Below are positions 1,746 through 60,324 of a stretch of 64,000 bases of DNA, piece after piece. The stretch lies in NCBI GenBank assembly GCA_000004985.1, contig GG738920.1; one strand, 5' to 3'. The position numbers and the translations under genes were made by a program. How positions within the stretch are numbered: position 1 is the first letter of the stretch; every line of letters begins with the position of its first letter. The notes below the pieces were generated by a model. That model was given only the letters and a program-made list of their open reading frames with translations, searched no databases and had not been told where the DNA came from. The stretch comes from Naegleria gruberi (lineage: Eukaryota).

Positions 1746-2136
1746 TTAAAAATAGACTGCCGTTAATTACTGGAATATTAATTCAAAGCTTGATGATCAA
1801 GCTATTGATTGAAATCAAACCGATTATTGAATATTGATCATTGAATTGGTGAATAATCACTCTTGATAATGTTACTTATTCATATTGCATGCAAATCAAC
1901 CTGATTCAATCTACAAAGGTTGGTAGTTGCACCACTACGTGGCGAAACTACCCAACCACGATGAATCAACATGTGATTCACTTCCATTCAACTCAATTTG
2001 ACCGTTATAATCAATAAATCAATGAAATGTTCCTTTATTAGCAATACCTATTCAATCTAATGAGTAGATTCACGTCCCAAACATTTNNNNNNNNNNNNNN
2101 NNNNNNNNNNNNNNNNNNNNNNNNNNNNNNNNNNNN

Positions 2137-2334: not shown

Positions 2335-4104
2335 TGACTTCTTTTAGTCAATTAAGACAATTAAGGATATAACAATAGAAAAAGTTGACAATCTCAAAAT
2401 AAACTTTATTATCATGTAGTATATCTCAAATAAAGTGGACTGTATTCAAATTATATACTTTTATTTCAAGAAATGCATTCAGTAGATAGTACTTGGTGAT
2501 CTGTCAATGTGGCTAGAAATCTGAAAGGTCCAGAACCATATAAATAGAATCCTGAATCGAATACTCTTGATGCGTAGAACAATCTGAGAAAGTATCATAC
2601 TCATGACTCAATTCCTCTTGATCATTGTTGTATTTTTCATTCATGCGTAGATAAAAATAACGTACATTCAAAAATACTCTCAAAAATTCTACGCATCAAT
2701 ATGAATGACAACCAAATTGATTGAATATAAGTCCGTCCGCAAAGTGACGCAAACTAACGGAATATCGAAATCGTTACTACTTTCGAATAGCTTGAAAACA
2801 ACACATTTACACCACAACTCGATAACTAGATAAGAACTATATACTTTTTTTAAAACTTTACTAAAAAAACCAACAAAATACCCAAACGGCGCTTAATAAC
2901 CCTATATCAGATCATAAAGACCATGGAGCCACAGAAGAAACAAATCAAAACAACACGTTTCCAAACCCTTCAACCCAACCATCATAACTTGATATATATA
3001 AATATTTAACAATTTCACATCAGCCGTATATTGTGCCCCATTACCATCACCATCTTTTGACATCATTTGTGATATATATTGTTAATGTATTTAAGGAGAA
3101 AAGCTTAATAAATAGGGGTTGACATGGGATCCAAACCCTAAGGAAATATAAGGAAAGTTACCACTCTCAAAATAAATGATAATATCGTGTTCTACATCTC
3201 AAATAAGGTGGACTTTCATCAAATTATATGTTTTCATTTCAAGAAATGTATCCAGTAGATAGTACATGGTGATTTGTCAGGGTGGATTGATGGAAATCTG
3301 AAGGGTCCAGAAACAACTCCATTTTCACTGAAATTGATATCATGATATGTAGACACTCTAATTAGCATATAATATCAATTTCATGAATATTGGCTCAGTA
3401 GATATTGAGTTGTCAACTCTATCACTATACTATAAAACTTTGACATAAATTCAAAGATTATGCTCTAAATCACTTATTTTATATGAAACTAGTCTAGAAT
3501 TGATAACACAAATTCTGTACACCATTTATATACATCTATACAAGTTTAGAAACAATTCATGATACTTTCATTCAGTCAATCAGTAAATGTTCAATGTCAA
3601 TAGTGATTATATCCAATTGTACACACTGTCTCAATGAAAGTATATCCAAACATCATGTAACTTTACCAGATACATTTAGTCACACTGATATACATCTGGT
3701 ATCAATTTTAGTCTGTTAGAATTGAATTCAATATGATAATAATAACAATCTGTCAAATTGTCACATTTCAACATATAGAATGAATACCATCTCAGTCAAT
3801 TTACAAAATATCATACTAGTATCAAAAATGAATACACTTCCCTTGATGAGGAGAACAATCTGAGAAAGTTTTATATTCATGGCTCAATATCTTCAAGTCA
3901 ACTAAGGAACATCTAAGGTAATCAAAAGGGAAGAATCTTAATTCCAAAATTAAATTTTACCATCATGTCAAAATCATTGAATAATGCATTAATTATACAA
4001 GAATAATATATTCAATTGTTATATTCATGTCAGTAATCAGTGATGGTGACACTCNNNNNNNNNNNNNNNNNNNNNNNNNNNNNNNNNNNNNNNNNNNNNN
4101 NNNN

Positions 4105-4468: not shown

Positions 4469-5247
4469 TGACTTCTTTTAGTCAATTAAGACAATTAAGG
4501 ATATAACAATAGAAAAAGTTGACAATCTCAAAATAAACTTTATTATCATGTAGTATATCTCAAATAAAGTGGACTGTATTCAAATTATATACTTTTATTT
4601 CAAGAAATGCATTCAGTAGATAGTACTTGGTGATCTGTCAATGTGGCTAGAAATCTGAAAGGTCCAGAACCATATAAATAGAATCCTGAATCGAATACTC
4701 TTGATGCGTAGAACAATCTGAGAAAGTATCATACTCATGACTCAATTCCTCTTGATCATTGTTGTATTTTTCATTCATGCGTAGATAAAAATAACGTACA
4801 TTCAAAAATACTCTCAAAAATTCTACGCATCAATATGAATGACAACCAAATTGATTGAATATAAGTCCGTCCGCAAAGTGACGCAAACTAACGGAATATC
4901 GAAATCGTTACTACTTTCGAATAGCTTGAAAACAACACATTTACACCACAACTCGATAACTAGATAAGAACTATATACTTTTTTTAAAACTTTACTAAAA
5001 AAACCAACAAAATACCCAAACGGCGCTTAATAACCCTATATCAGATCATAAAGACCATGGAGCCACAGAAGAAACAAATCAAAACAACACGTTTCCAAAC
5101 CCAACCTTCAAACCCTAGCCCAAAATTATAAACTTATTCAAATATCATTAAATTTTATATCATTCGATTGGAAATGATGAGTAGAACAACGTAGTATATT
5201 TAGTTTTTCAATTTATAAAATATTAACTTTGTAAATAATGTCAGATT

Positions 5248-7300
5248 NNNNNNNNNNNNNNNNNNNNNNNNNNNNNNNNNNNNNNNNNNNNNNNNNNNNN
5301 NNNNNNNNNNNNNNNNNNNNNNNNNNNNNNNNNNNNNNNNNNNNNNNNNNNNNNNNNNNNNNNNNNNNNNNNNNNNNNNNNNNNNNNNNNNNNNNNNNNN
5401 NNNNNNNNNNNNNNNNNNNNNNNNNNNNNNNNNNNNNNNNNNNNNNNNNNNNNNNNNNNNNNNNNNNNNNNNNNNNNNNNNNNNNNNNNNNNNNNNNNNN
5501 NNNNNNNNNNNNNNNNNNNNNNNNNNNNNNNNNNNNNNNNNNNNNNNNNNNNNNNNNNNNNNNNNNNNNNNNNNNNNNNNNNNNNNNNNNNNNNNNNNNN
5601 NNNNNNNNNNNNNNNNNNNNNNNNNNNNNNNNNNNNNNNNNNNNNNNNNNNNNNNNNNNNNNNNNNNNNNNNNNNNNNNNNNNNNNNNNNNNNNNNNNNN
5701 NNNNNNNNNNNNNNNNNNNNNNNNNNNNNNNNNNNNNNNNNNNNNNNNNNNNNNNNNNNNNNNNNNNNNNNNNNNNNNNNNNNNNNNNNNNNNNNNNNNN
5801 NNNNNNNNNNNNNNNNNNNNNNNNNNNNNNNNNNNNNNNNNNNNNNNNNNNNNNNNNNNNNNNNNNNNNNNNNNNNNNNNNNNNNNNNNNNNNNNNNNNN
5901 NNNNNNNNNNNNNNNNNNNNNNNNNNNNNNNNNNNNNNNNNNNNNNNNNNNNNNNNNNNNNNNNNNNNNNNNNNNNNNNNNNNNNNNNNNNNNNNNNNNN
6001 NNNNNNNNNNNNNNNNNNNNNNNNNNNNNNNNNNNNNNNNNNNNNNNNNNNNNNNNNNNNNNNNNNNNNNNNNNNNNNNNNNNNNNNNNNNNNNNNNNNN
6101 NNNNNNNNNNNNNNNNNNNNNNNNNNNNNNNNNNNNNNNNNNNNNNNNNNNNNNNNNNNNNNNNNNNNNNNNNNNNNNNNNNNNNNNNNNNNNNNNNNNN
6201 NNNNNNNNNNNNNNNNNNNNNNNNNNNNNNNNNNNNNNNNNNNNNNNNNNNNNNNNNNNNNNNNNNNNNNNNNNNNNNNNNNNNNNNNNNNNNNNNNNNN
6301 NNNNNNNNNNNNNNNNNNNNNNNNNNNNNNNNNNNNNNNNNNNNNNNNNNNNNNNNNNNNNNNNNNNNNNNNNNNNNNNNNNNNNNNNNNNNNNNNNNNN
6401 NNNNNNNNNNNNNNNNNNNNNNNNNNNNNNNNNNNNNNNNNNNNNNNNNNNNNNNNNNNNNNNNNNNNNNNNNNNNNNNNNNNNNNNNNNNNNNNNNNNN
6501 NNNNNNNNNNNNNNNNNNNNNNNNNNNNNNNNNNNNNNNNNNNNNNNNNNNNNNNNNNNNNNNNNNNNNNNNNNNNNNNNNNNNNNNNNNNNNNNNNNNN
6601 NNNNNNNNNNNNNNNNNNNNNNNNNNNNNNNNNNNNNNNNNNNNNNNNNNNNNNNNNNNNNNNNNNNNNNNNNNNNNNNNNNNNNNNNNNNNNNNNNNNN
6701 NNNNNNNNNNNNNNNNNNNNNNNNNNNNNNNNNNNNNNNNNNNNNNNNNNNNNNNNNNNNNNNNNNNNNNNNNNNNNNNNNNNNNNNNNNNNNNNNNNNN
6801 NNNNNNNNNNNNNNNNNNNNNNNNNNNNNNNNNNNNNNNNNNNNNNNNNNNNNNNNNNNNNNNNNNNNNNNNNNNNNNNNNNNNNNNNNNNNNNNNNNNN
6901 NNNNNNNNNNNNNNNNNNNNNNNNNNNNNNNNNNNNNNNNNNNNNNNNNNNNNNNNNNNNNNNNNNNNNNNNNNNNNNNNNNNNNNNNNNNNNNNNNNNN
7001 NNNNNNNNNNNNNNNNNNNNNNNNNNNNNNNNNNNNNNNNNNNNNNNNNNNNNNNNNNNNNNNNNNNNNNNNNNNNNNNNNNNNNNNNNNNNNNNNNNNN
7101 NNNNNNNNNNNNNNNNNNNNNNNNNNNNNNNNNNNNNNNNNNNNNNNNNNNNNNNNNNNNNNNNNNNNNNNNNNNNNNNNNNNNNNNNNNNNNNNNNNNN
7201 NNNNNNNNNNNNNNNNNNNNNNNNNNNNNNNNNNNNNNNNNNNNNNNNNNNNNNNNNNNNNNNNNNNNNNNNNNNNNNNNNNNNNNNNNNNNNNNNNNNN
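5248..7300. other. Assembly gap of 2053 N inside the repeat block. There are also 50-N gaps at 2087-2136 and 4055-4104
   Basis: Runs of n. The left gap edge ends '...gtcagatt', which continues as 'gtcagattaaaaattat...' in the copy at 7662. The right edge starts 'acgtcccaaacattt', the same 15-mer that precedes the gap at 2087. Confidence 0.95.
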
Positions 7301-10300
7301 ACGTCCCAAACATTTGACTTCTCAAAGTCCATATTTCAAAAGTTAGTACTGACCTGACCTTTATATATCTATCAATACAAGAAATGAAAACATCAAATTT
7401 ACATTATTAATAGATGATAAGAATTATAATCAATGATATAAATCTTCACTAAGTAATATATTAAATAACCCAAATAAATCAACTCTGAATCCTAACCAAA
7501 CCCTTTGAACCTAAAATTGAAATACCAGACCCAATGTTTCAAAGTTCAAACCCTAGCCCAAATTATTGAATATTATATCATTCGATTGTAAATGATGAGT
7601 AGAACAATATATTATATTTAGTTTTTCAATTTATAAAATATTAACTTTGTAAATAATGTCAGATTAAAAATTATAAAATGAAACCATATGAAGAATGATA
7701 ATTTCAAAATCCTTTAATGAGATTATATAGTATATATCTTCACTAACAACATTCATAATCACTCTCATATGAAATTTCTAAACTTCATGTTGGTAGGTAT
7801 AAAAGTATCAAGTGAAAAGGGAAGATGTGAGGTAAAAGAGGTCAACAATAACTTTTGAGTTTCTCATCAAAACATATTAAATCCTAATATGAAAATGTTC
7901 CATTTGATTAGTAAACATCGAATATCAAATTTATTTTCACTTTCATATTTAAAGATTTCTTCCCTCAATCACACATGGTCAACTATGATGAAAAGGATGA
8001 AATCTTGAAAAAAGACCACTATTGAAACTTTACCAACATCATGCAGATGATCTATAATGTTGTAGATTTCAATTTCATATCATAAGAATCAGAAATGGTA
8101 CCATAGGAAAGTAAATGTTGATTTTACAAAGTTGACTGAAAGGAAAGACAAGTCAGATCAGTCTATCACAAACATCACTTCAATCAACAAAATATATATG
8201 AAAATGCTCCATTCAATCCGTAGAGATAGAATATCACGTTTATTTTAACTTTCATATTCATGATTTCATCCCTTTCATACCAACTAGTCAACTATGGACA
8301 TGAATGAAAATCTGGAAAATGACCACTCTATGAAACATTACCATCATGTTCAACATCTCAAATACTGTATATGATTCAAATTTCAGACATTTTGGAGAAT
8401 ATTCTATCTTTCAGTAAGGTAAAGGGTGAAATTTCAAGGTTGTCTTGGAAGATCAGGAGGAAATCTTGAATATAGAAAACCACGCCCTCAATCAACAAAA
8501 TATATCAATCGATTGGAAATCAATAGTACATCTCGAAAACATCATTTATTTTATGATTTGAAATCTCTCCTTTACCTCTTTTGGTCAATTAAGACAATTA
8601 AGGATGATACTATAGGAAAAGTTACCAATCTCAAAATAAATGATAATATCGTGTTCCACATCTCAAATAAAGTGGACTTTCATCAAATTATATAATTTCA
8701 TTTCAAGAAATGCATCCGTTAGATAGTACATGGTGATATTTCAAGGGAATGGATGGAAATCTGAAGGATATAGAAACAACTCCATTTGCACTGAAATTGA
8801 TACCATGATATGTAGACACTCTAATTAGCATATAATATCAATTTCATGAGTATTGGCTCAGTAGATATTGAGTTGTCAACTCTATCATTTTACTATAGAA
8901 CTTTGACATAAAATCAAAGATTATGCTCCAACTCACTTATTTTATATGCAATTAGTCTAGAACTGATAACACACATTCTATACACCATTTATATACATCT
9001 ATACAAGTTTAGAAACAATTCATGATACTTTCATTCAGTCAATCAGTAAATGTTCAATGTCAACACTTAATATATCTTAGTGAACACTCTATCTCAATGT
9101 AAGTACATCCAATCATCCTGTAACTTTACAAATTACGTTTAATCACACTATTATACATCTGGTATCAATTTCACAGTGTTAGAATTGAATTCAATATGAT
9201 AATAATAACAATCTTTCAAAATGTCACAATTCAATATATAGAATATACTCCATCTCAGTCAATTTACAATATATTGTACAAGTATCAAGTATGAATACAC
9301 TCCTCTAGATGAGGAGAACAATCCGAGAAAGTTTCATATTCATGGCTCAGAAAACCCTGATTAAAGACAAAAATGAGTAAAATGACCGAGAATCGATCGC
9401 ACGTCCATTAGTGAACATTGCCATTATACAACCGCTGAGCTAACAGCGCTATAGGTTTTATATCTAAAAATATCTATACAAACAAGAATATGTCGCATGA
9501 CAAATAAGAAGAACATTACTACCACTGCAAATAACAACAAGAATTAAATTATAATTTATTAATAATATTAATTTATTAATAATATTGAAGGGAGAAGTTG
9601 CTCCCTTCCAAATGATGGAAGGGAAGATCCAACTTGATGACCAAGAGGTGATACATCCACCAATCCAATCCAATTACATTATTAAAGCTATCCTAAATTT
9701 CCAATTAATTTTGCAACTTGGTGGAAGTGAGTGCCAAAGGCACCACACCTCCACCATTATAATAACTTCCAAATAAATATTATTCCAATTCCGAAACATC
9801 ATCTTCCAAATAATTCCAATCAATATATATTTTTAAAATTATTATGAAACAACTCCTGATGATATGATGATGATATGATACGATGATGATACGATGAGAT
9901 GATGAGATGATTGAATGAGGAAGAGAGAGGAGACATTACAACATTTTTTTTGTATGTTACTTTTCCAACCGACAATTTAAGAGCATCCGCACTCTCACCT
10001 CCATACAACCAAGACAAGAATGAATCAACTCTTTAATTACCAGCAAGGATTTCCAACAAGAATAATTAAATATTTAATCGGTGATAATTCAATAATTACT
10101 TAGTGAAATCCAAAAGTTGAAACACCAATCGATAGCAAATCATCTCTAGTATGACATATATTTTTTATTGATCAATTTCTGATCATTCTTTTACCTTTCC
10201 CTAGGAATAGTAAAATCGCAATATATTGAGGGAGGAATTGCTGATTATCTCAATAATTATATAACAAACTATACACAATCTATAGCCCACTGGATAGCTG

Positions 10301-21913: not shown

Positions 21914-23542
21914 ATGTACTTAAGTGTTGAGAAACCTTTCTCACACATTCTCATATCAAAAAAAAAATCCAATCATCATGAGAACAAGCTATTGCTAACT
22001 CTTTTAATGGTGGCACTAATTGCCGTCATTCACTCAACTACAGCCACAAGTTTCAAACAAGCTTTGGGCAACTACGTCAATCAACCAGAAAGTGCCTATT
22101 CCTACAAATTAATTAACACCAGATCCATCACTGGTGCCACCATCTACACACTCAACGTTACCTCCTTAACTTGGTTGCCAACTTCAGAAGTCGGCCCAGC
22201 AAACACTTGGTTCCATTATCTTGAAATTACAATTCCAAATAATTTGAATAAGAATAATCGTGAAAGTTTATTCTTTATTTCTAATGGTGATAATAATTTG
22301 GCAGTCCCTGGTGCTACTGATTTGACTGCTTCTCCAATTCATGTTCCTACTTTCGTATATGATACTGCAGTTTCGACTAAAAGTGTTACTGCCATTGTTT
22401 ATATGGTTCCAAATCAACCAATGAGTTATAATTCAGATCCTACTCATGCTACTCGTGTGGAAGATGCTATTATTGGTTATGGATGGAATCGTTTCTTACA
22501 AAACACTACCAAGGCCAATCTCTTGTATGTCACTCAACTGCCACAAGTCAAGGGAAGTAAGATGGCAATGGATACTGTTGTTTCCTTTGTTAAGAAACAA
22601 GCCAATCACGTCATTGAAAAGTTTACAGTCAGTGGTGCTTCAAAGAGAGGGTAAGTATTTTAGTCAATGTAGCCATTTAACATTTTGACAGTTGGACAAC
22701 CATTCTTTTAGGCGCAATTGACAATCGTGTTGCTGCTATTGCACCAATGGTCATTCCAGTCTATGGAACTAAGGAATTCATTGTTAGAACTTATAACAAC
22801 ATGTGTGCTTGGCCTTGGGCTTTCTATGATTATGTCACTAATGGTGTCACTGATCAACTTTTTGATAAATCATTTGAAAGTTTGACAGATATTGTTGATC
22901 CACTGAATTATGGTAGATTGAAATCCATTCCAAAGTATCAAATTCTCGCCTTGGGTGATGAATTCTTTGCTCCGTAAGTTTCTTTAACTTTCCAATAATT
23001 TTTAATTCGATTCTCATAGTGACCTCAATAATTTGTTTTATTCCAAAATTAAGGGTGAAAAGTATGTACGTTACATTCCAAACACTGGCCACTTGATGCT
23101 CAATACCAATGTCTTACAAGTCCTCGGTTCTTTCTATGCATCTAGATTGAATAATCTCGTCATTCCAAAGTACACTTTCTCACATGAATTCGTCAATGGT
23201 GGTGTAATTATTTATGTCTCAGTTACCAATGGTATCAAACCAACAGCTGTCAAGTTGTGGTCTGCCACTAATCCAACAAGTCGTGATTTCAGAACTTCCA
23301 CAATTGGTGTTGATGTTTGGCAATCTACTAATTTGGTTGAAGTAAGAGAATTGGAATGGCAAGCTTTTGTAAGAAATCCAGCAACTGGTTATACAACTGC
23401 CACCATTGAATTGACATTTGCCAATGCTGTCAATGGTGTTGCATTGGAACCTTTAGTTTTCACATCCAATGCTTTTATTACACCAGATACTACTCCTTGT
23501 AATATCAATAAGAATAATTTACCAACTCATAAAATGGTTTAA
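21914..23542 (+). CDS. PhoPQ-activated pathogenicity-related protein (PqaA-type), alpha/beta-hydrolase-like. Model is join(21914..22650,22692..22973,23020..23542)
   Basis: Family-typical sequence. Has signal-peptide-like 'LLLTLLMVALIAVIHSTTA'. 'GASKRG' (GxSxG) is formed across the 41-nt intron 1. Intron 2 is 46 nt, and both introns are GTAAGT...AG and restore the frame. Confidence 0.6.
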
Positions 23543-27111: not shown

Positions 27112-27623
27112 TAGACATGAAAACCAACAATTATAAAAATGTAAATAAATGTTTTAAATACTAATCGATGTAATTATTCCAACAACTCTGAATTCTAAAA
27201 TTGAATCATATTTTAATTATTAATAAATTCAAACCACATGCAAAGAAATGCAGAAATAACATCACTTTGTAATAACGATGAATTTTTGCATGGTTCATAA
27301 GAAACATAACTGCAACCCAAACCAACAACAACATGCTGTCCAAACATCTGTTTCTGGTCTAAATATCTTTTCATTTTGCCGTGCAAATCGGAAACTATCT
27401 CGGGACATTGTTATTATTTGAAAACGTCAATTAAGAAAAACCTTAAAAGACTCAGATCAGAATTTTAACACTTGTATTAATAGCTGTTTCAATTGCAGCA
27501 AAACAGTAATTGAAGCTATTATTGCTCCTCAATATCAATAAAAACAGGCAAAATTGTTGTTTTGCCATATTTCAAACTTGATAAAGGACTTTGGCAATAA
27601 GCTTAGTGTAAAATTGGCAAAAA

Positions 27624-27741
27624 GACTACAGCACCACAGGTTCCCAAGTTGTCTCCAACCTCAGTACTGATGTGGCTCGACGATGCTTAACTTCTCAAAT
27701 CGGACGGGATGAGGTGTATTCATCGTGATATGGCCGTAGCC
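27624..27741 (-). rRNA. 5S rRNA gene, copy 1
   Basis: The reverse complement reads 'GGCTACGGCCATATCACGATGAATACACCTCATCCCGTCCGATTTGAGAAGTTAAGCATCGTCGAGCC...GGTTGGAGACAACTTGGGAACCTGTGGTGCTGTAGTC', about 118 nt, followed by a T-run. It matches the eukaryotic 5S consensus, including the box C region. Confidence 0.9.
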
Positions 27742-41471: not shown

Positions 41472-43227
41472 TTAAGGATTTGACTGATTGGTCTTCCAAG
41501 GATTATGAAACGATGAAAATGATCTGAAATCTTCACGAGAAGCAAATATTTGACATCCAAAGAATGCTTCCTTCGCATCACAAGATTCAATGATGGTGAG
41601 ATTTGAAAGGATTTTCTGAATGGAAATAAGAAAATCCTTTTCTAAATTCACAATAATGAGGTGAGTGGTTGTTTCATTCGTGATGATACTTGGCAGTAGG
41701 TCAATACATTCTGTAGAAATGGTTTCTAATTTTGGAGCACTGAATGAGTGGATATCGTCAGCAAGTGATTGATTATTCGAAACAACACTAATTGTAACAT
41801 TTACTCCACAATTCATGTCACCTACATCCTTTTCTATTACAATGCAATTGGGAGTGTTATGATAGTGAGCTAGCATGACATGTCTAGATACGAAACAACA
41901 CGCAGGCACTCTAGAATAAAGAACATAATCACTGAAATTTGAAAAGTAATCAGAAATGAGAAAACGTGGAGGAATTGAAATCACCAGTGAATGACCTTTT
42001 GATAGCTGAACTTTCGAATAAATTTCAGAAAAGAATCCATTCACATCTTCTCTCCTGTCCAATTTGTGATATCTATCATTTTTGTACATTGAATTAAATA
42101 AGAAAGTTGAACCAGGATTCAAACCAAGATAAAAGTAAACTTGCATTTCTGAACTTTAGTTGTTGGTTGACTGATAAAGAAAATTAAACTTACTGATCTA
42201 AAAGTTTGAAAAAGTATGGCTCAACAGAACGAGGTGTTTTCTCATTGAATAATTGAAAGAATGTCATCTCACTTGTAATATCAATACATAGTGGTGAAAA
42301 TAAGCGTTCTGTGAAGTTTCGAATATTATTGCAACAGTAATACCAATCTGTAAAGTCATTCCCTTCCCAAAATGAGTTAAAAGAAGTATCAGTCCAATAT
42401 CTCTGATAGATGGGTTTCCATACATGTGATGATCGTCCTGCACGATTCAAATTTCTATTCAATGGTAAAATCAATGAGCATATTTCACTTTCCTTCAGAT
42501 ATGAGAAAATAATTGCGAGTATTTCATCTGGAAGTTGTTCGAATTGATTTTCATATGTGTTTCTTTTCAATTCATCTTGTGGTCTGTTCAATAGATATTC
42601 GAATGTCTTGCCACTTTCAACGAGAAACTGTTGGGCAGCTCTATAACTTTTTGAAGCTGCCATGACGTCGCCATTCTTTTCCTGTTCCCTACTCTTCCTC
42701 AATAATTGCTCAATTTTCTTGTAGATTTCTGATTGATCGAATTTGTCATCTCTTGGACATGAGCTTGCATCCACTCTAAAATACATTATTTCAGTTCTAA
42801 GAATAAACTTGGTTCCCTTCCTAACAGAACAACCTTCATGGGCAAAATCTTGATTGAATAGAACAAGTTTACCCATGCTAGGTTTCACAGTATGAACGAG
42901 ATTATAGTAGGAGGAACTATTTCCATCCATCATCTCTGGATCATTGTAAAATCGCGTCTCTCCTCCTTTAAAATCATCATTCAAATAAATTAGTAAGGTA
43001 TAGATACTTCTTTCATTATTGTTTCTTTTGAATTGACCATCAGTGTGAATTTTGAAATATTCTCCGATTTGGTACTTGTTAAATCGCATCATTTCATTGA
43101 CTCCACAAGCTTTCCAAGTTCCTGCACTATCCACACCGAAAGGAGTTACCATTTTACTAATAGCATCCAAATCAATCCTAGTTTTCAGCTTATCAAATAT
43201 TAAACTTGCAAGATCGGCATCAATCAT
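41472..43227 (-). CDS. Prolyl 4-hydroxylase (2OG-Fe(II) oxygenase) fused to an F-box. Proposed model is join(41472..42153,42194..43227), about 571 aa, joined by a 40-nt intron. The alternative is two genes, 42190..43227 (P4H-F-box, 345 aa) and 41472..42146 (hypothetical, 224 aa)
   Basis: 'HTDGQ...FAHEGCSVRKG...ILRTEIMY' is the His-x-Asp...His, Arg/Lys P4H motif set. 'LPDEILAIIFSYLKESEICSLILPLNRNLNRAGRSSHVWKPI' is F-box-like. The TAA stop of the upstream ORF lies inside a GTAAGT donor ('gatca|gtaagt...aaag|ttcagaaATG'), and splicing keeps the frame into the downstream ORF. Confidence 0.5.
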
Positions 43228-43420
43228 CAACTCTCGGGTTGAATTTCTATACTCTTTTGGATATTCATCTTGAATTTCCTTAAAATGCTCCTCGGAGTTA
43301 TATTGTAAGATAGAGATTTATAAATTTCCTTGCAAGAGCCAGTTGGTAAGCAAAAGGATTGTTCCACTTTGCTATCTGGGATATTTAATAAATGAGGAAT
43401 ATTTTCAAAGTGAATAAGAT

Positions 43421-43492
43421 TCCCGTGTAGTCCAATGGCTAGGATACCTGGCTTTCACCCAGGAGGTCCGGGTTCAATTCCCGGCATGGGAG
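43421..43492 (+). tRNA. tRNA-Glu (anticodon UUC)
   Basis: 'TCCCGTGTAGTCCAATGGCTAGGATACCTGGCTTTCACCCAGGAGGTCCGGGTTCAATTCCCGGCATGGGAG' folds as a canonical cloverleaf with T-loop GGTTCAATTCC. Confidence 0.9.
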
Positions 43493-43599
43493 AATCATTT
43501 TGTTCATCTGGTGTTTTAATTATTTTGACATGCCAATAATTACAATTATTATCACTCAAGAAAAACCTTGAATTGATGAACAGCTTATCGTTTTCTTAT

Positions 43600-43673
43600 T
43601 CAATATTAAGATTTTGAGAAATTTCAAGGGGATTTTTCTCTTATTTCAATATTAAGATTTTGATGATTTGAAT
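43600..43673 (+). promoter_or_regulatory. Tandemly duplicated 5S upstream element ('cgttttcttattcaatattaagattttga' then 'ttttctcttatttcaatattaagattttga')
   Basis: The same ~30-bp TATA-like element occurs once upstream of 5S copy 3 (about 56453-56495 on the minus strand). Copy 1 has a different TATA-like 'tttttatatgaag' at the same distance. Confidence 0.5.
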
Positions 43674-43791
43674 GGCTACGGCCATATCACGATTCATGCA
43701 CCTCATCCCGTCCGATTTGAGAAGTTAAGCATCGTCGAGCCACATCAGTACTGAGGTTGGAGACAACTTGGGAACCTGTGGTGCTGTAGTC
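43674..43791 (+). rRNA. 5S rRNA gene, copy 2
   Basis: Differs from copies 1 and 3 only at positions 19-24 ('GATTCATGCA'). A TTTT terminator follows directly. It lies 182 bp downstream of tRNA-Glu. Confidence 0.9.
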
Positions 43792-43911
43792 TTTTAATTT
43801 TTCTTTCGTTATGAAAAACCGATTAGCAATCGATATCTTTATTTGAAATGTTGAAGTAGCTCACTTCTATGTTCTCCAATCTGTTGCAGATGAAATTTGA
43901 ACAGCCATCTG

Positions 43912-44889
43912 TCATTGTGCAAATGCTAACTTAAAATAACAACCAGATTGCTTAACAGCTGTAAGAACAACCTCTCTATCAACAGCCAATTCCTCAGAAG
44001 CATACATTCGAGCTTGGTAATCTCTCTTGACAGCTGTCATGACTATTTCTCTATCATTCTTCAATTCATCAGATGCAAACTCGAGTACTTTACCATATTG
44101 CTCCACAGCCAACATTACAATTTTCCTATCATTCCTACTTTCTTCAGAAGCATTTTCAAGTGCCCAACCATTTTGCTTAACAGCTTCCATAACAATTTCT
44201 CTGTCACTTTTCAATTCTTCAGAAGCAAATTCCAGTGAACAACCTTTTGATTTAACTGCTGCCAAGACAATTTCTCTATCTTTTGTTATCTCTTCTGAAG
44301 CAAACTGGAGTGCATAACCACAGTGCTCAACTGCAAACTTGACAATTTCTCCATCTTTTTGAAAATCAGTGGCATATCCTAAAGCATCAACACTTCGTTG
44401 AACTGCCAATAAGACAAATGGTCGATAATTCCACAAGTTGAACAATGAAGCAAGCCAACACATTTCGCTATTGCTGAATAGAGAAATGCACAAATCACAA
44501 AGTTGAAATCTTTCTTTTTTACTGTCAATTCCTGATTCTTGAATCAATTGAATTGCTTCTTCTTCTTGTTCGAAACCGAGTTTCAATATGCGATAGGCAA
44601 ATTTGCGGACTTTCTCCTTGTTTCGATCATCTCTACCACAAAATAAGTGTTGTTTCAGATAAGTGGATGCGATATTCGAATCAAGAGTTAGTATTACGGA
44701 ATCTGAATTATCAATATTTTGAAATGAGAATGATTCAGTGTTTGTTTTTTGTATCTTTGAGGATCGACGTTCGTCCTCACTTTCGAATAGTTTTGAAGAA
44801 TCCTTTCTTTTCATTTTTTCCAGTAAATGATTATTTAAAGCATTTAACAAAATTGTAAAATGGCTATTCGATTTTGTAAAACAATTCAT
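43912..44889 (-). CDS. Repeat protein resembling DUF4116, 325 aa, with about six ~38-aa 'DREIVLxAVKQNGxALEFASEELKxDREIV' repeats
   Basis: The periodic repeat is obvious in the translation. Single exon. It ends 120 bp from 5S copy 2. Confidence 0.6.
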   Translation of the reverse strand: MNCFTKSNSHFTILLNALNNHLLEKMKRKDSSKLFESEDERRSSKIQKTNTESFSFQNIDNSDSVILTLDSNIASTYLKQHLFCGRDDRNKEKVRKFAYRILKLGFEQEEEAIQLIQESGIDSKKERFQLCDLCISLFSNSEMCWLASLFNLWNYRPFVLLAVQRSVDALGYATDFQKDGEIVKFAVEHCGYALQFASEEITKDREIVLAAVKSKGCSLEFASEELKSDREIVMEAVKQNGWALENASEESRNDRKIVMLAVEQYGKVLEFASDELKNDREIVMTAVKRDYQARMYASEELAVDREVVLTAVKQSGCYFKLAFAQ

Positions 44890-52348: not shown

Positions 52349-53850
52349 TTTTTTTTTGTTGAGATTTTTAATTTTAGATTTTGTAAATTTTATAAATTTG
52401 GAACTGAAAATTAAGGATTTACATTTGGAAATTGAAATTGTAAAGTTGTGTGAATTGACAAATAATTTTCAATAGAGGAATCGTCTATGCTATCTGAAAT
52501 ATCTGATGCCACGTCTGGAGATTGGCTTTGCACATGATTTTAAGCAATTTGGCAAAACAACTTTTTTGTGTTTTAAAATTCTTTATTTTGAAACAAGACA
52601 AGAAATCAAACAACAAGCTTTTGATAATTAGCTGAAGATTGAGCCAACTTTGAAATCTTTTCAAATAACATAAGTCTTTTCAATAATTGCCAAATCCTTA
52701 ACATTTTCATCTCACGATATGGCAATGAAATTTGATGTAAACGCGCTACATCTCAGTTCACAACCATCAATGATTGTTTTCGGACACCAAATCAATGACA
52801 CTTATTGAATTCACGTTCCATAAGTTTATTCTGAGTTTCGAATAATCTCTCTATTATCATCTCTCTCCTGTTGGCCACGTACGTTTGTCACAACACATTG
52901 ATGTGTTTTTCTGAGAAAAATACAATTTCCTTTTTTGCATTTTCATAAAAGGCATAAAAAATAGCCGTTTAATAACGAAAATTTGTAATTTTTATGAAAT
53001 TCATGGCATCGAACACACATCTATTTGATGTGAATTGATAAATTTGAATTGATACAATTCTCTTCCAAATTTGGAAAAATGTTGAATTTGGAAATTATTC
53101 GAATATGGTGCGAGTTGAATGTGAGGAATTATGCCTTACTATTGTACCGAAACGAAACTGAAATTTAGTATAGACTTTCTAATACTAAAATACTATTTAA
53201 TATATTTTTCAATGAAAATGAATGTATAATTTATCAATGCTTGTTAATCAAAACGTGTTTTTCAATTTTCATGTTACATTGCAAATTAATAAAAACAAGA
53301 TTGAGAACAAGTAATTATACTAATGGGTATTAAAGCTCAGGGACTGTTACACCTTTAAGGTGATTCAGCCTTGAGACCTGCTTTAATGGATATAAATCTT
53401 TATTAGCAGGTCCCGAGATTAATAAATATGGCTCTTATAAAAAAACTTATCAATAGTATTAGTAAAGATAAGAAAAAAATTAGGAGGTGCGAATAGGATG
53501 GCATAACTAAACTGAAATTAAAATAAAAAAGATATCATTTGATGATATCTGAAACCTCACTTCAATGAACACTTACCAAGAATCATTGAGAGCGTAAAAA
53601 AGGTTGAATAAGGGTGGGACTAATTGGGTGGGAGTTATCTGCAGAAGGTGAGCTAAGGTCTTTCGTTTTCTTGTTGTTCTTTGGTGTAGTTGGTGTTGGG
53701 GCCATTGTGATAATTTTTTGAGCATGGAAAAATACTCAACTTATATTTTATTAAGTTTACAATGAAAACAAGTCCATTCTTCACTTCGCTCAGAATTAGA
53801 CATCACGTTTGCTAAATTAAGAAAGATCAAAAACTTTCAAACATAAAAAA

Positions 53851-55164: not shown

Positions 55165-55393
55165 TGTAAGATTGTCTGATGTCTTGATGAATAAACTTGG
55201 GGATTGTTCCCTTCTTCATTGTCAATCGAGTTTGTGAAATAATAATTGATAAATGACTTATCAGATAGGAGAATTAAACAATTGACTGCAATTATTTCAA
55301 GATCAGCTAAAAAAGTTAGAATACAATTGATTTTTTCCAAATCCTGTGTGAGTATCTATTTCCATTCAAAAAAGACGTGAAACCAAAATGATT

Positions 55394-55465
55394 CTCCCAT
55401 GCCGGGAATTGAACCCGGACCTCCTGGGTGAAAGCCAGGTATCCTAGCCATTGGACTACACGGGA
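55394..55465 (-). tRNA. tRNA-Glu (UUC), identical to the 43421-43492 copy, in inverted orientation
   Basis: Exact reverse complement of the + copy. About 35 bp of 5' flank is also conserved. Confidence 0.9.
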
Positions 55466-56334
55466 ATCTTATTCTCTTTAAAAATATTCCTCATCTATAA
55501 AATAGCATTGGTTGTAACGAAAAATTAATTATTCCAATCATTTAAGTTCTTTCTAGATCAGAAAGCATACAGTGTAGTAGTTCCTTACAAAAATCTAAAC
55601 CAAAACCATCTTGAAAAACAAGCTCTATACCTAGTCCAGAGTCTCAAGAAGAAATTGGACGAAAATTTATAAAGTTTTAAGAAAAGATAAAGTTGCAATA
55701 TTTCTGAGTTTTCTGGATATTCAAAAAGTGAAATATTCCGAATGTTAAATTGAAATACTTATTACCAGGTTAGCTAGCCATTCTTAAAATTCGTCATCAT
55801 ACATGCTCGGAATTTGACAAATACTCAATTTTGCTCTGATTGAGATTTCTTTGTGCAATGATTTTTCAATTAATTAAAAGAGTTAGGTGGCTCCTAATCT
55901 GACGGTTTGTGCAATGTCTGATTGAAACCAAATCAAAGTGAGCAATTAAGCTCAAACCCTGATCCCTACAAAAAATTGAGTTAATAGTAGATGCAACCCG
56001 TGAGCTGCTTTCAGCTATTAAACTGAAAAGAACAGATACTACACTCGATCAAAGCCAATTGGCCGAGAAAGATGGTTTTGAGAATTGCATAAGGAACAGA
56101 GTTTTTATTCTGTTGGTTGTGGAGCGAAGAATGGCAAAATGTTTGTGGTATTTTAATAAATTTTAATGCCTTGTTCGACTATTGATATTGAACATGTAGC
56201 GAATCTTAATAATCAATATTTATGATGGAGCAGTTCAATCAGAACTTGGAAAGAATGTGAGAAGCAAACTTGACCAACAATTAAGGGGGATTGATAAGTA
56301 AACGTGAACTAGTGAAAAAACAAATAAACAAAAA

Positions 56335-56452
56335 GACTACAGCACCACAGGTTCCCAAGTTGTCTCCAACCTCAGTACTGATGTGGCTCGACGATGCTTA
56401 ACTTCTCAAATCGGACGGGATGAGGTGCGTTCATCGTGATATGGCCGTAGCC
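56335..56452 (-). rRNA. 5S rRNA gene, copy 3
   Basis: The reverse complement matches copies 1 and 2 except at positions 19-24 ('GATGAACGCA'). T-run terminator. It carries the upstream element shared with copy 2. Confidence 0.9.
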
Positions 56453-56672: not shown

Positions 56673-56759
56673 TCCGATGAGACGGAATCGAACCGCCGAC
56701 CACAGGATGACAGTTTTTCTTGCTACAGTCCCATGCTCTACCAGCTGAGCTATCATCGG
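56673..56759 (-). tRNA. tRNA-Tyr (GUA) with a ~14-nt intron 3' of the anticodon
   Basis: Reverse complement 'CCGATGATAGCTCAGCTGGTAGAGCATGGGACTGTAG[caagaaaaactgtc]ATCCTGTGGTCGGCGGTTCGATTCCGTCTCATCGGA'. The intron position is as in other eukaryotic tRNA-Tyr genes. Confidence 0.8.
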
Positions 56760-58386: not shown

Positions 58387-60324
58387 ATGGGTCAAGCCTG
58401 TGGTCTAGGAAGTAACAACGGAAAACAAATTGACCAAAAGGTTAATGATATGCTCCGTGATGATAGATTAAACGATAGCGAGATTAAATTACTCTTGTTA
58501 GGTGCTGGTGAATCTGGCAAATCTACATTGTTCAAGGTATGTTGTTGTTAATGATGATAATTTGGTGGATAACAATAATGTTTTTAATGTCTTGTTGTCT
58601 TGTTACCCATTTACAATTTTATTCATAATTATATACTATGGATAATTCATATCTTCATTCCTAATCATAACAATCATGGCGATGACGAATGGCAATGAAC
58701 CTCATCCTGTGCTTGTGCTTGTTCTTTTTTACTGTAAATTTTGGCATCCCACATGAAACCGTTACTATTTGTTTCCCTCCAAAAATTATTTCTGTTTTAA
58801 AAACTTATTGCTAATGATGATGCTGTTATCCAATGATAATCATCATGATGACAATATGATGTTGATGACGATCATCGTTTGGGTTCATTCACCACCACCA
58901 AATATCAACTTCCATGGAATGTGAACACCTGTTACTACCACTACTACCTAACAAAATATGTGAACCGTATTCCATTATATTCTCTTCCTTCCTTTCTAAC
59001 GTCATTCATCATACTATCTATTCTATTATTATTCAATATTATATATTTATTATATTCACTAATCAAATTCTATAATTTATAATCATAATACCACAGCAAA
59101 TCAGAATTATACACGACGGAGGTTATAATGAACACGAATTACTTGGTTTCGTTGATACTATTCACTCCAACGTTCTCCAATCTATGCAAGCTCTTATTCA
59201 AGCCTCTCATGATCTCAACATTCCTATTGAGAACCCAGAGAATAGACAAAAGGCTGCTAAAATCCTTGAATTACAAAACGACTCACTCTTGAATATTAAC
59301 AAGGTCTACAATGAAGCCTTTGCCAATGACTTGAAGGATTTATGGGAAGATGCTGGTATACAGACTGTTTATAAACGTAGAAACGAATTCCAATTGTTGG
59401 ACTCTACTGAGTAGTAAGTATTTACTTAGAACAACAATAACAATAATTATTATTTAATTATTATTATTATATAATCATAACAATAACAACAACAATATAC
59501 AGCTTCTATACAAACTTGAAGAGAATCTCTCAAAAAGACTATGTTCCTAACCAACAAGATGTCCTCCACTGCAGAATAAAAACCACTGGTGTGGTTCAGC
59601 TGAGGTTCGAAATTGATGAACTCAAAATGTAAGTAACAAACACAATCCAAAATACTAATTAGATACTTTGACATTCTGATGACATTCCTTGATGTTTCCC
59701 TTCATCATACAACAATGATAATAATAATTACAATAATATAGGCTTCTCATTGACGTTGGTGGTCAAAGAAACGAACGTAAGAAATGGTACGTATTCTCAT
59801 CTCTCCCATCCTTTTATTTACCACATTAATTATACACACAATAATTTAATAATTAATAATTTATAATTTTCAATAATAATAATAGGATTCACTGCTTTGA
59901 TGATGTCACTGCCATTATTTTCGTTGCCAGTTTGAGTGAATTTGATCAAAAGTGTTACGAAGATGATAGTACAAACCGTTTGGACGAATCCATACTTTTA
60001 TTTGATGAAATTGTCAATTCTCACTTCTTTGAAAAGACACCTGTTATCTTGTTCTTGAATAAGAGTGACTTGTTTTCTAAAAAGTTGAATGAACGTGGTG
60101 TTTTCAAGAGAGTTTTCCCAGAATTTGAAGGAGATGACACCAATTTGAGACAATGTGCAGATCACATCAAGGACAAATTCATTTCTCGTGTTGAAGATAA
60201 GGATGAAAAGAAGATTGATGTCAGGATAACATGTGCCACTGATACTGAGGCCATCAAGACAGTATTCGACAATGTTAAGGAAGCCATTGTCAAGAACACC
60301 GTTATTGGTAAAAACAACTTTTAA
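58387..60324 (+). CDS. Heterotrimeric G-protein alpha subunit, 358 aa. Model is join(58387..58536,59097..59413,59503..59628,59742..59786,59886..60324)
   Basis: 'MGQACG', 'LLLLGAGESGKSTLFKQIRIIH', 'DVLHCRIKTTGVV', 'LLIDVGGQRNERKKWIHCF', 'ILFLNKSDLF' and 'TCATDT' are G1-G5 boxes formed only after splicing. Introns are 560, 89, 113 and 99 nt, all GT...AG. Confidence 0.85.

What the first reader, a model, noticed from the sequence alone, without database searches (positions are those of the whole stretch)
22651..23019. A class of very short (40-46 nt) GTAAGT...AG introns alongside 60-145-nt introns
The PqaA-like gene needs a 41-nt intron (22651-22691) and a 46-nt intron (22974-23019) to restore its frame. 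Using the first builds a GxSxG hydrolase motif ('GASKRG') across the junction. A 40-nt intron of the same type (42154-42193) joins two ORFs in frame. All other introns in the window are 60-145 nt, plus one of 560 nt. A two-size-class intron length distribution matters for gene prediction in this genome, because ORF-based annotation will split genes at mini-introns.
Basis: partly seen in the sequence, partly recalled or inferred. Interest (0 to 1): 0.5.

Follow-up and report, generated by a model that had tools for sequence, protein, structure and literature searches.

The report
Three very short Naegleria spliceosomal introns
The three 40-46-base segments are genuine, ordinary GT-AG introns of Naegleria gruberi that are already in the public gene annotation, and they look like the short end of one continuous intron-length range, not a special class.

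Summary
The window is a Naegleria gruberi NEG-M scaffold (exact ORF products equal EFC37211.1, EFC37215.1 and others). All three segments exist as described: 22651-22691 (41 nt, +), 22974-23019 (46 nt, +) and 42154-42193 (40 nt, minus strand). Each is GTAAGT...AG in phase 2.

They are real introns. Removing them gives gap-free alignments across invariant residues. N. lovaniensis homologues carry introns at the same codon positions but of 62-208 nt. An environmental N. gruberi strain has a 1-nt indel inside the 40-nt segment and none in 1,769 nt of flanking exon.

They are not new. The product of join(21914..22650,22692..22973,23020..23542) is exactly EFC37210.1. EFC37253.1 contains the junction made by the 40-nt intron.

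A separate size class is not supported. Fifteen supported introns measure 40, 41, 46, 60, 77, 79, 79, 89, 99, 101, 101, 101, 113, 292 and 560 nt. One- and two-component fits tie, and the mini-introns share donor, composition and phase with the rest.

The annotation warning holds only for prokaryote-style ORF callers, which split both genes in a metagenome. A paralogue's reference model (EFC49721.1) also appears truncated at a 49- or 64-nt intron. The motif 'GASKRG' is GxSxxG, not GxSxG.

Verdict: confirmed, ordinary, low interest.

The parts
22651..22691 (+). Mini-intron 1 (41 nt, GTAAGT...CAG, phase 2) of the PqaA-like gene. It splits the codon of invariant Gly215 in the G-x-S-K-R-G-W motif.
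   Evidence: Three N. lovaniensis paralogues have introns of 87, 174 and 208 nt at the same site. The exact spliced product is EFC37210.1. Environmental strain: 40/41 identical, no indel.
22974..23019 (+). Mini-intron 2 (46 nt, GTAAGT...TAG, phase 2) of the PqaA-like gene. It splits the codon of invariant Pro309 in G-D-E-F-F-x-P.
   Evidence: N. lovaniensis paralogues have introns of 62, 90 and 105 nt at the same site. In EFC37210.1. Environmental strain: 46/46 identical.
21914..22650 (+). Exon 1 of the PqaA-like (PF10142 PhoPQ_related) gene NAEGRDRAFT_74998.
22692..22973 (+). Exon 2 of the PqaA-like gene.
23020..23542 (+). Exon 3 of the PqaA-like gene, ending at its stop codon.
42154..42193 (-). 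Mini-intron 3 (40 nt, GTAAGT...AAG, phase 2, inside a His codon CA|T) of the prolyl-4-hydroxylase/F-box gene NAEGRDRAFT_75006.
   Evidence: N. lovaniensis P0123 has a 67-nt intron in the same His codon. The reference protein EFC37253.1 reads ...KLLDHSEMQVY... across the junction. The environmental strain has a 1-nt insertion here (41 nt) and no gaps in 1,769 nt of flanking exon.
42194..43227 (-). Upstream coding exon of the P4H/F-box gene (2OG-FeII_Oxy_3 and F-box-like domains). The reference model starts at an internal Met (MVTPFG...) inside this exon.
41472..42153 (-). Downstream exon of the P4H/F-box gene (C-terminal domain, with stop codon).

Best explanation
The three segments are ordinary U2-type GT-AG spliceosomal introns of Naegleria gruberi that lie at the short end of the organism's intron-length range.

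Proposed mechanism, with what is shown and what is inferred:
- Each begins with the consensus donor GTAAGT, which I take (from general knowledge) to pair fully with the U1 snRNA 5' end.
- Each ends in an A-rich NAG acceptor like the other introns of the window (shown).
- Each has a TNAAY-like candidate branch site 11-14 nt from the 3' end (inferred).
- At this size they would be recognised across the intron ('intron definition'; inferred).

Because all three are phase 2, failure to splice terminates translation one codon later. In the PqaA-like protein that would separate the invariant Ser212, Asp304 and His333 motifs, which lie in exons 1, 2 and 3. The triad assignment is inferred, not tested.

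The introns are old. Their positions are shared with N. lovaniensis, but they are shorter in N. gruberi (41/46/40 nt against 62-208 nt). All three are already spliced in the public N. gruberi gene models.
For: Organism: exact ORF products equal N. gruberi proteins on a 218,836-nt scaffold. GC of 0.33 matches the published 33% (PMC8296547).

Sequence and frame: GTAAGT...AG at the stated coordinates, giving an open 1542-nt CDS with full-length PF10142, E 5e-96.

Homology across the junctions:
- Alignment A1 is gap-free across both junctions, with invariant GxSKRGW and DxFFxP.
- In alignment A2, N. lovaniensis and N. fowleri proteins span the third junction.

Conserved intron positions with different lengths:
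- N. lovaniensis PqaA paralogues: 87/62, 174/90 and 208/105 nt.
- N. lovaniensis P4H orthologue: 67 nt in the same His codon, plus a separate 50-nt intron.

Strain comparison:
- Introns 1 and 2: 86 of 87 nt identical, no indel. Adjacent 3'UTR/intergenic DNA: 84% identical with 41 gap columns.
- Intron 3: a 1-nt insertion, against zero gaps in the flanking exons.

Public annotation: the 513-aa spliced product equals EFC37210.1 / XP_002669954.1 / D2W0V9. EFC37253.1 (546 aa) contains the junction ...LLDHSEMQ....

Same kind as the other introns:
- Donor and acceptor scores fall in the range of the other introns.
- AT content is 0.71-0.76 against 0.70-0.87 for the others.
- 10-11 of the 16 GTAAGT hexamers in the window are intron donors.

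Machinery: a U2 snRNA gene with the canonical GUAGUA branch-recognition sequence lies in the window.

Length continuity. N. lovaniensis sample: 50-208 nt.
Against: - Splicing is inferred from homology, comparative data and the public models.
- Branch sites are only weak matches to TACTAAC. The best match in the 40-nt intron lies 2 nt from the 3' end and is mutated in the other strain, so it cannot be the branch site.
- The census holds only 15 introns from one 64-kb window. A genome-wide second mode at about 40-46 nt cannot be excluded. The post-hoc test of the specific 46-to-60 gap gives p of about 0.05-0.06.
- The near-perfect conservation of introns 1 and 2 between strains hints at constraint beyond the splice sites.
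Confidence: 0.93

Rival explanations
1. N. gruberi has a genuinely separate population of 'minimal' introns of about 40-46 nt, at the physical lower limit of its spliceosome. These would be under selection on both length and sequence, distinct from the main 60-115-nt population.
For: - Three of 15 supported introns cluster within 40-46 nt, and none lies between 47 and 59 nt.
- The specific 46-to-60 gap has a post-hoc p of about 0.05.
- Introns 1 and 2 are 86/87 identical with no indel between strains, while the neighbouring intergenic DNA is 84% identical.
- The homologous N. lovaniensis introns are all longer.
Against: - Mixture BIC is equal for one and two components.
- A largest gap of the observed size occurs in 36-65% of unimodal simulations. 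The 60-to-77 gap is just as large.
- No distinguishing donor, acceptor, composition or phase feature was found.
- Intron 3 tolerates a 1-nt length change between strains.
- The sister species shows a continuous 50-208-nt series.
- Two of the three mini-introns are in one gene, so they are not independent.
Confidence: 0.12
2. The segments are not introns. The loci would instead be frameshifted pseudogenes, assembly errors, or pairs of separate adjacent genes.
For: - The downstream ORF of the P4H/F-box gene begins with an in-frame ATG 7 nt after the segment (41472-42146).
- ORF callers report the pieces as separate genes.
- The window contains assembly gaps.
Against: - The GTAAGT...AG boundaries are exact. 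They fall at positions that carry introns of other lengths in N. lovaniensis.
- Removal restores invariant residues without gaps.
- The same segments occur in an independently assembled environmental strain with intact boundaries.
- N. lovaniensis and N. fowleri encode both halves of the P4H protein in one polypeptide.
Confidence: 0.02
3. The genes are spliced here but with other junctions, for example a downstream in-frame acceptor that gives a longer intron.
For: Other in-frame acceptors exist on paper: 22651-22787 (137 nt), 22974-23145 (172 nt) and 42193-42073 (121 nt). In the related contigs L004 and L007 two in-frame acceptors 15 nt apart cannot be told apart.
Against: - The longer alternatives delete 27-42 conserved residues that align without gaps to all homologues.
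- For intron 3, the nearby AGs at +5 and +14 break the frame (sequence read).
- The public models use the short junctions.
Confidence: 0.03

Closest known systems
Annotated GT-AG spliceosomal introns of Naegleria gruberi NEG-M (JGI/GenBank models EFC37210.1 = NAEGRDRAFT_74998 and EFC37253.1 = NAEGRDRAFT_75006)
   Same: They are identical. The exact spliced products are the deposited proteins.
   Different: Nothing differs for these three introns. Published summary statistics give only a mean intron length of 203 bp for N. gruberi (PMC8296547). The short tail is therefore not described in the papers I could read.
The 'short intron' population seen in many eukaryotes (Iwata & Gotoh 2011, PMC3033335: length histograms fitted as two Frechet components, with short introns making up more than 80% in many fungi and protists)
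   Same: A narrow population of short introns with strong 5' splice sites plus a thin long tail. In this window that means 40-113 nt against 292 and 560 nt.
   Different: The known split is short against long.
Homologous introns in N. lovaniensis (PqaA paralogues C9374_001477, C9374_011094, C9374_000818; P4H/F-box C9374_004061)
   Same: Same codon position, same phase, and a GTAAGT or GTAGGT donor.
   Different: Lengths are 62-208 nt against 40-46 nt. N. lovaniensis also has a 50-nt intron elsewhere in the P4H gene.
Extremely short introns of ciliates and nucleomorphs (Paramecium and the Bigelowiella natans nucleomorph, mentioned in PMC3488318)
   Same: They lie near a lower length limit, and retention is detected through premature stops.
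   Different: Those are said to have weak splice signals. From my own memory they also have a very narrow genome-wide length peak of about 18-30 nt. Here the signals are strong and the lengths merge into a broad distribution.

Membership tests
U2-type GT-AG spliceosomal intron | GT at the 5' end and AG at the 3' end | tested here: met
   All three are GTAAGT...NAG.
U2-type GT-AG spliceosomal intron | Removal restores a continuous reading frame and conserved protein sequence | tested here: met
   Open 1542-nt CDS, full-length PF10142, and gap-free alignments across invariant residues.
U2-type GT-AG spliceosomal intron | Intron position shared with homologous genes while the sequence and length are free to vary | tested here: met
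   Same codon and phase in four N. lovaniensis genes, with lengths of 62-208 nt. A 1-nt indel between strains in intron 3.
U2-type GT-AG spliceosomal intron | Branch site complementary to the U2 GUAGUA sequence, 10-40 nt upstream of the 3' splice site | tested here: inconclusive
   The U2 gene in the window has GUAGUA. Introns 1 and 2 have TTAAC or TTAAT at 11-14 nt from the 3' end. Intron 3 has only TCAAC at 13 nt. Several longer introns also lack a YTRAY match.
U2-type GT-AG spliceosomal intron | Spliced transcripts observed | not testable with these tools
   No RNA-seq or EST access. The only indirect support is that the public gene models use these junctions.
   n = 15. BIC for k=1 against k=2 is 36.0 against 36.1 (all introns) and 14.7 against 14.4 (introns of 113 nt or less). 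Largest-gap p is 0.36-0.65. Power is low.
   Donor and acceptor scores, AT content and phase all fall within the range of the other introns.
PhoPQ-activated pathogenicity-related / PqaA family (Pfam PF10142) | Full-length match to the family profile above the curated cut-off | tested here: met
   322 bits against a cut-off of 20.3, profile positions 2-367 of 367.
   The motif is G-A-S-K-R-G-W, that is GxSxxG, and it is invariant in 11 homologues. No solved relative was found by sequence. A catalytic role was not tested.

The most novel reading that the evidence does not exclude
N. gruberi might harbour a genome-wide sub-population of about 40-46-nt 'minimal' introns at the lower working limit of its spliceosome. 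These would be under purifying selection on nearly every position and on length. That would explain why introns 1 and 2 are as conserved between strains as the exons, while homologous introns in N. lovaniensis are 1.5-5 times longer.
Probability: 0.12. Interest if true: 0.3.

Novelty: already known. Interest (0 to 1): 0.1.

Why it matters
Scientifically this matters little, because these are canonical introns that are already annotated.

There are three practical points:
- RNA-seq aligners and gene finders used on Naegleria need a minimum intron length of 40 nt or less. The N. fowleri study set 30 bp (PMC8296547).
- Prokaryote-style ORF calling on metagenomic contigs fragments Naegleria genes at such introns. 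This is seen for both genes in ERZ929261.
- At least one reference model, the paralogue EFC49721.1, appears to stop by reading through a short intron. It thereby loses a C-terminal domain of about 216 aa, so the annotation is not uniformly reliable at short introns.

Tried and rejected
- First guess of a dictyostelid origin (AT-rich genome with a PqaA/AprA homologue): rejected once the best hits were Naegleria and exact matches to N. gruberi proteins were found.
- First two versions of my own exon-chaining gene finder: one split every gene and the other chained everything into one mega-gene. I replaced them with a full-parse version. That version still produced false gene merges through 'introns' of 480 nt or more, which I discarded. 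One search was wasted.
- The 257-nt G-alpha 'intron': rejected because the product lacked the DVGGQ switch II. It is really two introns around a 45-nt exon.
- Looking for N. gruberi intron-length quartiles in the supplement of PMC6142364: the stored table is truncated and has no N. gruberi row. It gave only 10,688 annotated introns in 15,709 genes.
- The N. gruberi genome paper itself is not held.
- The look-up of encoding contigs does not hold the N. gruberi assembly, so no further N. gruberi introns could be sampled.
- Guessing the reference models of the G-alpha, cullin and Abhydrolase_3 genes by exact look-up failed.
- A weak tblastn hit to the paralogue N-terminus at 43674-43700 is a chance match inside a 5S rRNA gene.
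- Two N. lovaniensis genes in L003 could not be resolved into exons with my thresholds.
- Structure prediction to test the Ser/Asp/His triad was considered and not run, because it is peripheral to the intron question.

Full report
**Source of the window.** The window is AT-rich (GC about 0.33) and contains three runs of N, which are assembly gaps. The translations of five intron-less ORFs are identical to deposited Naegleria gruberi proteins, all on one 218,836-nt scaffold: EFC37211.1, EFC37215.1, EFC37219.1, EFC37247.1 and EFC37256.1. The published GC content of N. gruberi NEG-M is 33% (PMC8296547).

**The observation.** The three segments are exactly as described.
- 22651-22691 is GTAAGT...CAG, 41 nt.
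- 22974-23019 is GTAAGT...TAG, 46 nt.
- 42154-42193 is GTAAGT...AAG, 40 nt. It lies on the minus strand, which the finding did not say.

All three sit between the second and third base of a codon. An unspliced message therefore adds one residue and then meets the TAA of G|TAA|GT. This is why the mechanical ORFs end ...SKRG*...FFAP* and ...LLDQ*. Joining 21914-22650, 22692-22973 and 23020-23542 gives an open 1542-nt CDS. Its product matches Pfam PF10142 (PhoPQ_related) end to end at 322 bits.

**More than chance.** I scanned both strands for pairs of a strong donor and a strong acceptor 25-59 nt apart. Nine pairs exist. Only these three are flanked by long open frames with coding-like codon usage (272/94, 97/173 and 374/226 codons). 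The other six have no ORF context. The site matrices were trained on a set that included the three, but the ORF criterion is independent of that. GTAAGT itself is not enriched (16 found against 19.8 expected). However, 10-11 of the 16 copies are intron donors, so the hexamer is largely reserved for that role.

**Evidence from homology.**
- The spliced PqaA-like protein aligns without gaps to three N. lovaniensis proteins (52-59% identity), to bacterial PqaA-family proteins and to animal AprA-like proteins.
- The first junction falls in the codon of invariant Gly215, inside the invariant G-x-S-K-R-G-W motif.
- The second junction falls in the codon of invariant Pro309, in D-x-F-F-x-P.
- The gene holding the 40-nt intron encodes a 2OG-Fe(II) oxygenase (prolyl-4-hydroxylase-like) domain and an F-box. 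The N. lovaniensis and N. fowleri homologues (743 and 744 aa) span its junction and continue into the C-terminal domain.

**Evidence from conserved intron positions.** I mapped the N. lovaniensis proteins exactly onto their loci.
- All three PqaA paralogues have introns at the same two codon positions and phases, with lengths 87/62, 174/90 and 208/105 nt.
- The P4H/F-box gene has a 67-nt intron in the same His codon (CA|GTAGGT...CAG|C) and a further 50-nt GTAAGT...TAG intron.

Shared position with free length is the signature of old spliceosomal introns.

**Evidence from a second strain.** Metagenome ERZ929261 contains contigs of an N. gruberi-like strain.
- Over the PqaA-like gene, the exons are 98.2-99.7% identical. 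Intron 1 is 40/41 identical and intron 2 is 46/46, with no indels. The downstream non-coding DNA is only 84% identical, with 41 gap columns.
- Over the P4H/F-box gene, the flanking exons (1,769 nt) have no gaps. The 40-nt segment carries a 1-nt insertion, making it 41 nt, which would shift the frame if the segment were coding.

**Already annotated.** The 513-aa product of the three-exon join is exactly EFC37210.1 / XP_002669954.1 / UniProt D2W0V9 (NAEGRDRAFT_74998). The reference protein of the other gene is EFC37253.1 / D2W0W8 (546 aa). It starts at an internal Met and reads ...FFKLLDHSEMQVYFY..., which is exactly the junction made by removing the 40-nt intron. All three mini-introns have therefore been in the public annotation since the genome was released.

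**Is there a size class?** I built an exon-chaining gene finder, using codon log-odds trained on the long ORFs plus donor and acceptor matrices. I checked its models against Pfam. Domain matches run continuously across the junctions in:
- the cullin gene (79-nt intron);
- the G-alpha gene (560, 89, 113 and 99 nt);
- the RhoGEF gene (101 and 101 nt);
- the Abhydrolase_2 gene (77 nt);
- the Abhydrolase_3 gene (60 nt).

Adding two GTAAGT introns of an unnamed gene (79 or 91 nt, and 101 nt) and a 292-nt intron after the first 19 coding bases of the cullin gene gives the supported set: 40, 41, 46, 60, 77, 79, 79, 89, 99, 101, 101, 101, 113, 292 and 560 nt.

The statistics do not favour two classes.
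- The 46-to-60 step (ratio 1.30) is no larger than the 60-to-77 step (1.28). The biggest break is 113-to-292.
- One- and two-component log-normal mixtures have equal BIC.
- A largest gap of the observed size appears in 36-65% of unimodal simulations.
- Only the post-hoc test of that particular gap approaches 0.05.

The mini-introns also share their donor, acceptor type, AT content (0.71-0.76) and phase with the longer introns. Eleven N. lovaniensis introns form a continuous 50-208-nt series. The simplest reading is one short-intron population with a mode near 80-100 nt and a tail reaching 40 nt, plus a few long introns. This is the short/long pattern described for many eukaryotes (PMC3033335). 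With 15 introns from one window, a genome-wide second mode cannot be excluded.

**Mechanism.**
- Shown: canonical termini, the strong GTAAGT donor, A-rich NAG acceptors, and a U2 snRNA gene in the same window (55882-56075, minus strand) with the canonical GUAGUA branch-recognition sequence.
- Inferred: branch sites at TTAAC, TTAAT and TCAAC, 11-14 nt from the 3' end. The better-looking ACTAA in intron 3 is 2 nt from the acceptor and is mutated in the other strain, so it is not the branch site.
- Inferred from general knowledge: recognition across the intron, and rapid loss of unspliced messages because of the immediate stop codon.

**Consequences for annotation.**
On contig L006 the PqaA-like gene is reported as 116-, 76- and 169-aa genes. 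On L008 the P4H/F-box gene is reported as 362- and 233-aa genes, the second starting from an ATG created inside the intron.
- The warning is not specific to mini-introns, because any intron does this. Contig L004 is split at a 47- or 62-nt intron.
- The reference annotation handled the three window introns correctly.
- The paralogue EFC49721.1 (451 aa) ends ...GRYTGGQ, exactly where the homologous intron lies. On the near-identical contig L007, the sequence is GGC CA|GTAAGT..., followed 49 or 64 nt later by an open frame. That frame encodes a 216-aa homologue of the missing C-terminal domain. This reference model therefore appears to be truncated by read-through of a short intron. The NEG-M DNA of that scaffold could not be examined.

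**The motif claim.** 'GASKRG' is G-x-S-x-x-G, not GxSxG. It is invariant in the family. Together with the invariant Asp304 (GDEFF) and His333 (NxGH), it could form a Ser/Asp/His triad spread over the three exons. No solved relative exists by sequence, and I did not test the fold.

**Verdict.** The feature is already known and ordinary.

Noticed in passing
window 2087-2136, 4055-4104, 5248-7300: These are runs of N, that is scaffold gaps. They explain the GC 0.09 bin and the multi-frame, both-strand 'ORFs' of about 700 aa listed at 5200-7346, which are artefacts.
   Followed up: yes
L007:1590-1780 (ENA ERZ929261 contig); protein P0122 = EFC49721.1 of N. gruberi: The reference model of a P4H/F-box paralogue (451 aa) ends ...GGQ*, as expected from read-through of CA|GTAAGT. 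On the near-identical contig a 49- or 64-nt intron is followed by a 216-aa ORF (P0137) homologous to the missing C-terminal domain. The reference model therefore looks truncated.
   Followed up: partly
window 59629-59885 (+): The G-alpha gene has a 45-nt microexon (59742-59786) encoding ...LLIDVGGQRNERKKW (switch II), flanked by introns of 113 and 99 nt. Simple ORF joining skips it and predicts a single 257-nt intron.
   Followed up: yes
window 55882-56075 (-): A full-length U2 snRNA gene (Rfam RF00004, 115 bits) with the canonical GUAGUA branch-site recognition sequence.
   Followed up: partly
window 27623-27741 (-), 43674-43792 (+), 56334-56452 (-): Three dispersed 5S rRNA genes. Two lie near tRNA-Glu(TTC) copies (43420-43493 +, 55393-55466 -). 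The stretch at 55.3-57.4 kb holds tRNA-Glu, U2, 5S, another tRNA and tRNA-Arg.
   Followed up: no
window 56673-56759 (-): An 87-nt tRNA match in Rfam (54.8 bits) that ARAGORN did not report. It may be a tRNA with a long variable arm or an intron.
   Followed up: no
window 43231-43950 (-): The window's P4H/F-box gene lacks the roughly 85-aa N-terminal region present in its paralogues (MGNKH...RLMVIPNFF...). The upstream DNA instead carries a tRNA-Glu and a 5S rRNA gene on the other strand. The reference model starts at an internal Met.
   Followed up: partly
protein P0134 = EFC36302.1 (N. gruberi, another scaffold of 99,287 nt): A 144-aa model at least 90% identical to part of exon 1 of the PqaA-like gene, ending ...GASKRH at the position of mini-intron 1. 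It may be a partial duplicate or allelic fragment truncated at the same place.
   Followed up: no
window 22651-23019 against L006; 42154-42193 against L008: Between NEG-M and the environmental strain, the two PqaA mini-introns are as conserved as the exons (86/87 nt, no indel). The adjacent 3'UTR/intergenic DNA is 84% identical with many indels. The sample is small, but this hints at constraint on very short introns.
   Followed up: partly
window, both strands: GTAAGT occurs 16 times (19.8 expected from shuffles), and 10-11 of these are intron donors. The remaining copies at 755, 9099, 39215, 53576(-) and 60799(-) were not explained. The copy at 53576 could start a 65-nt intron of a small unannotated gene.
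   Followed up: no
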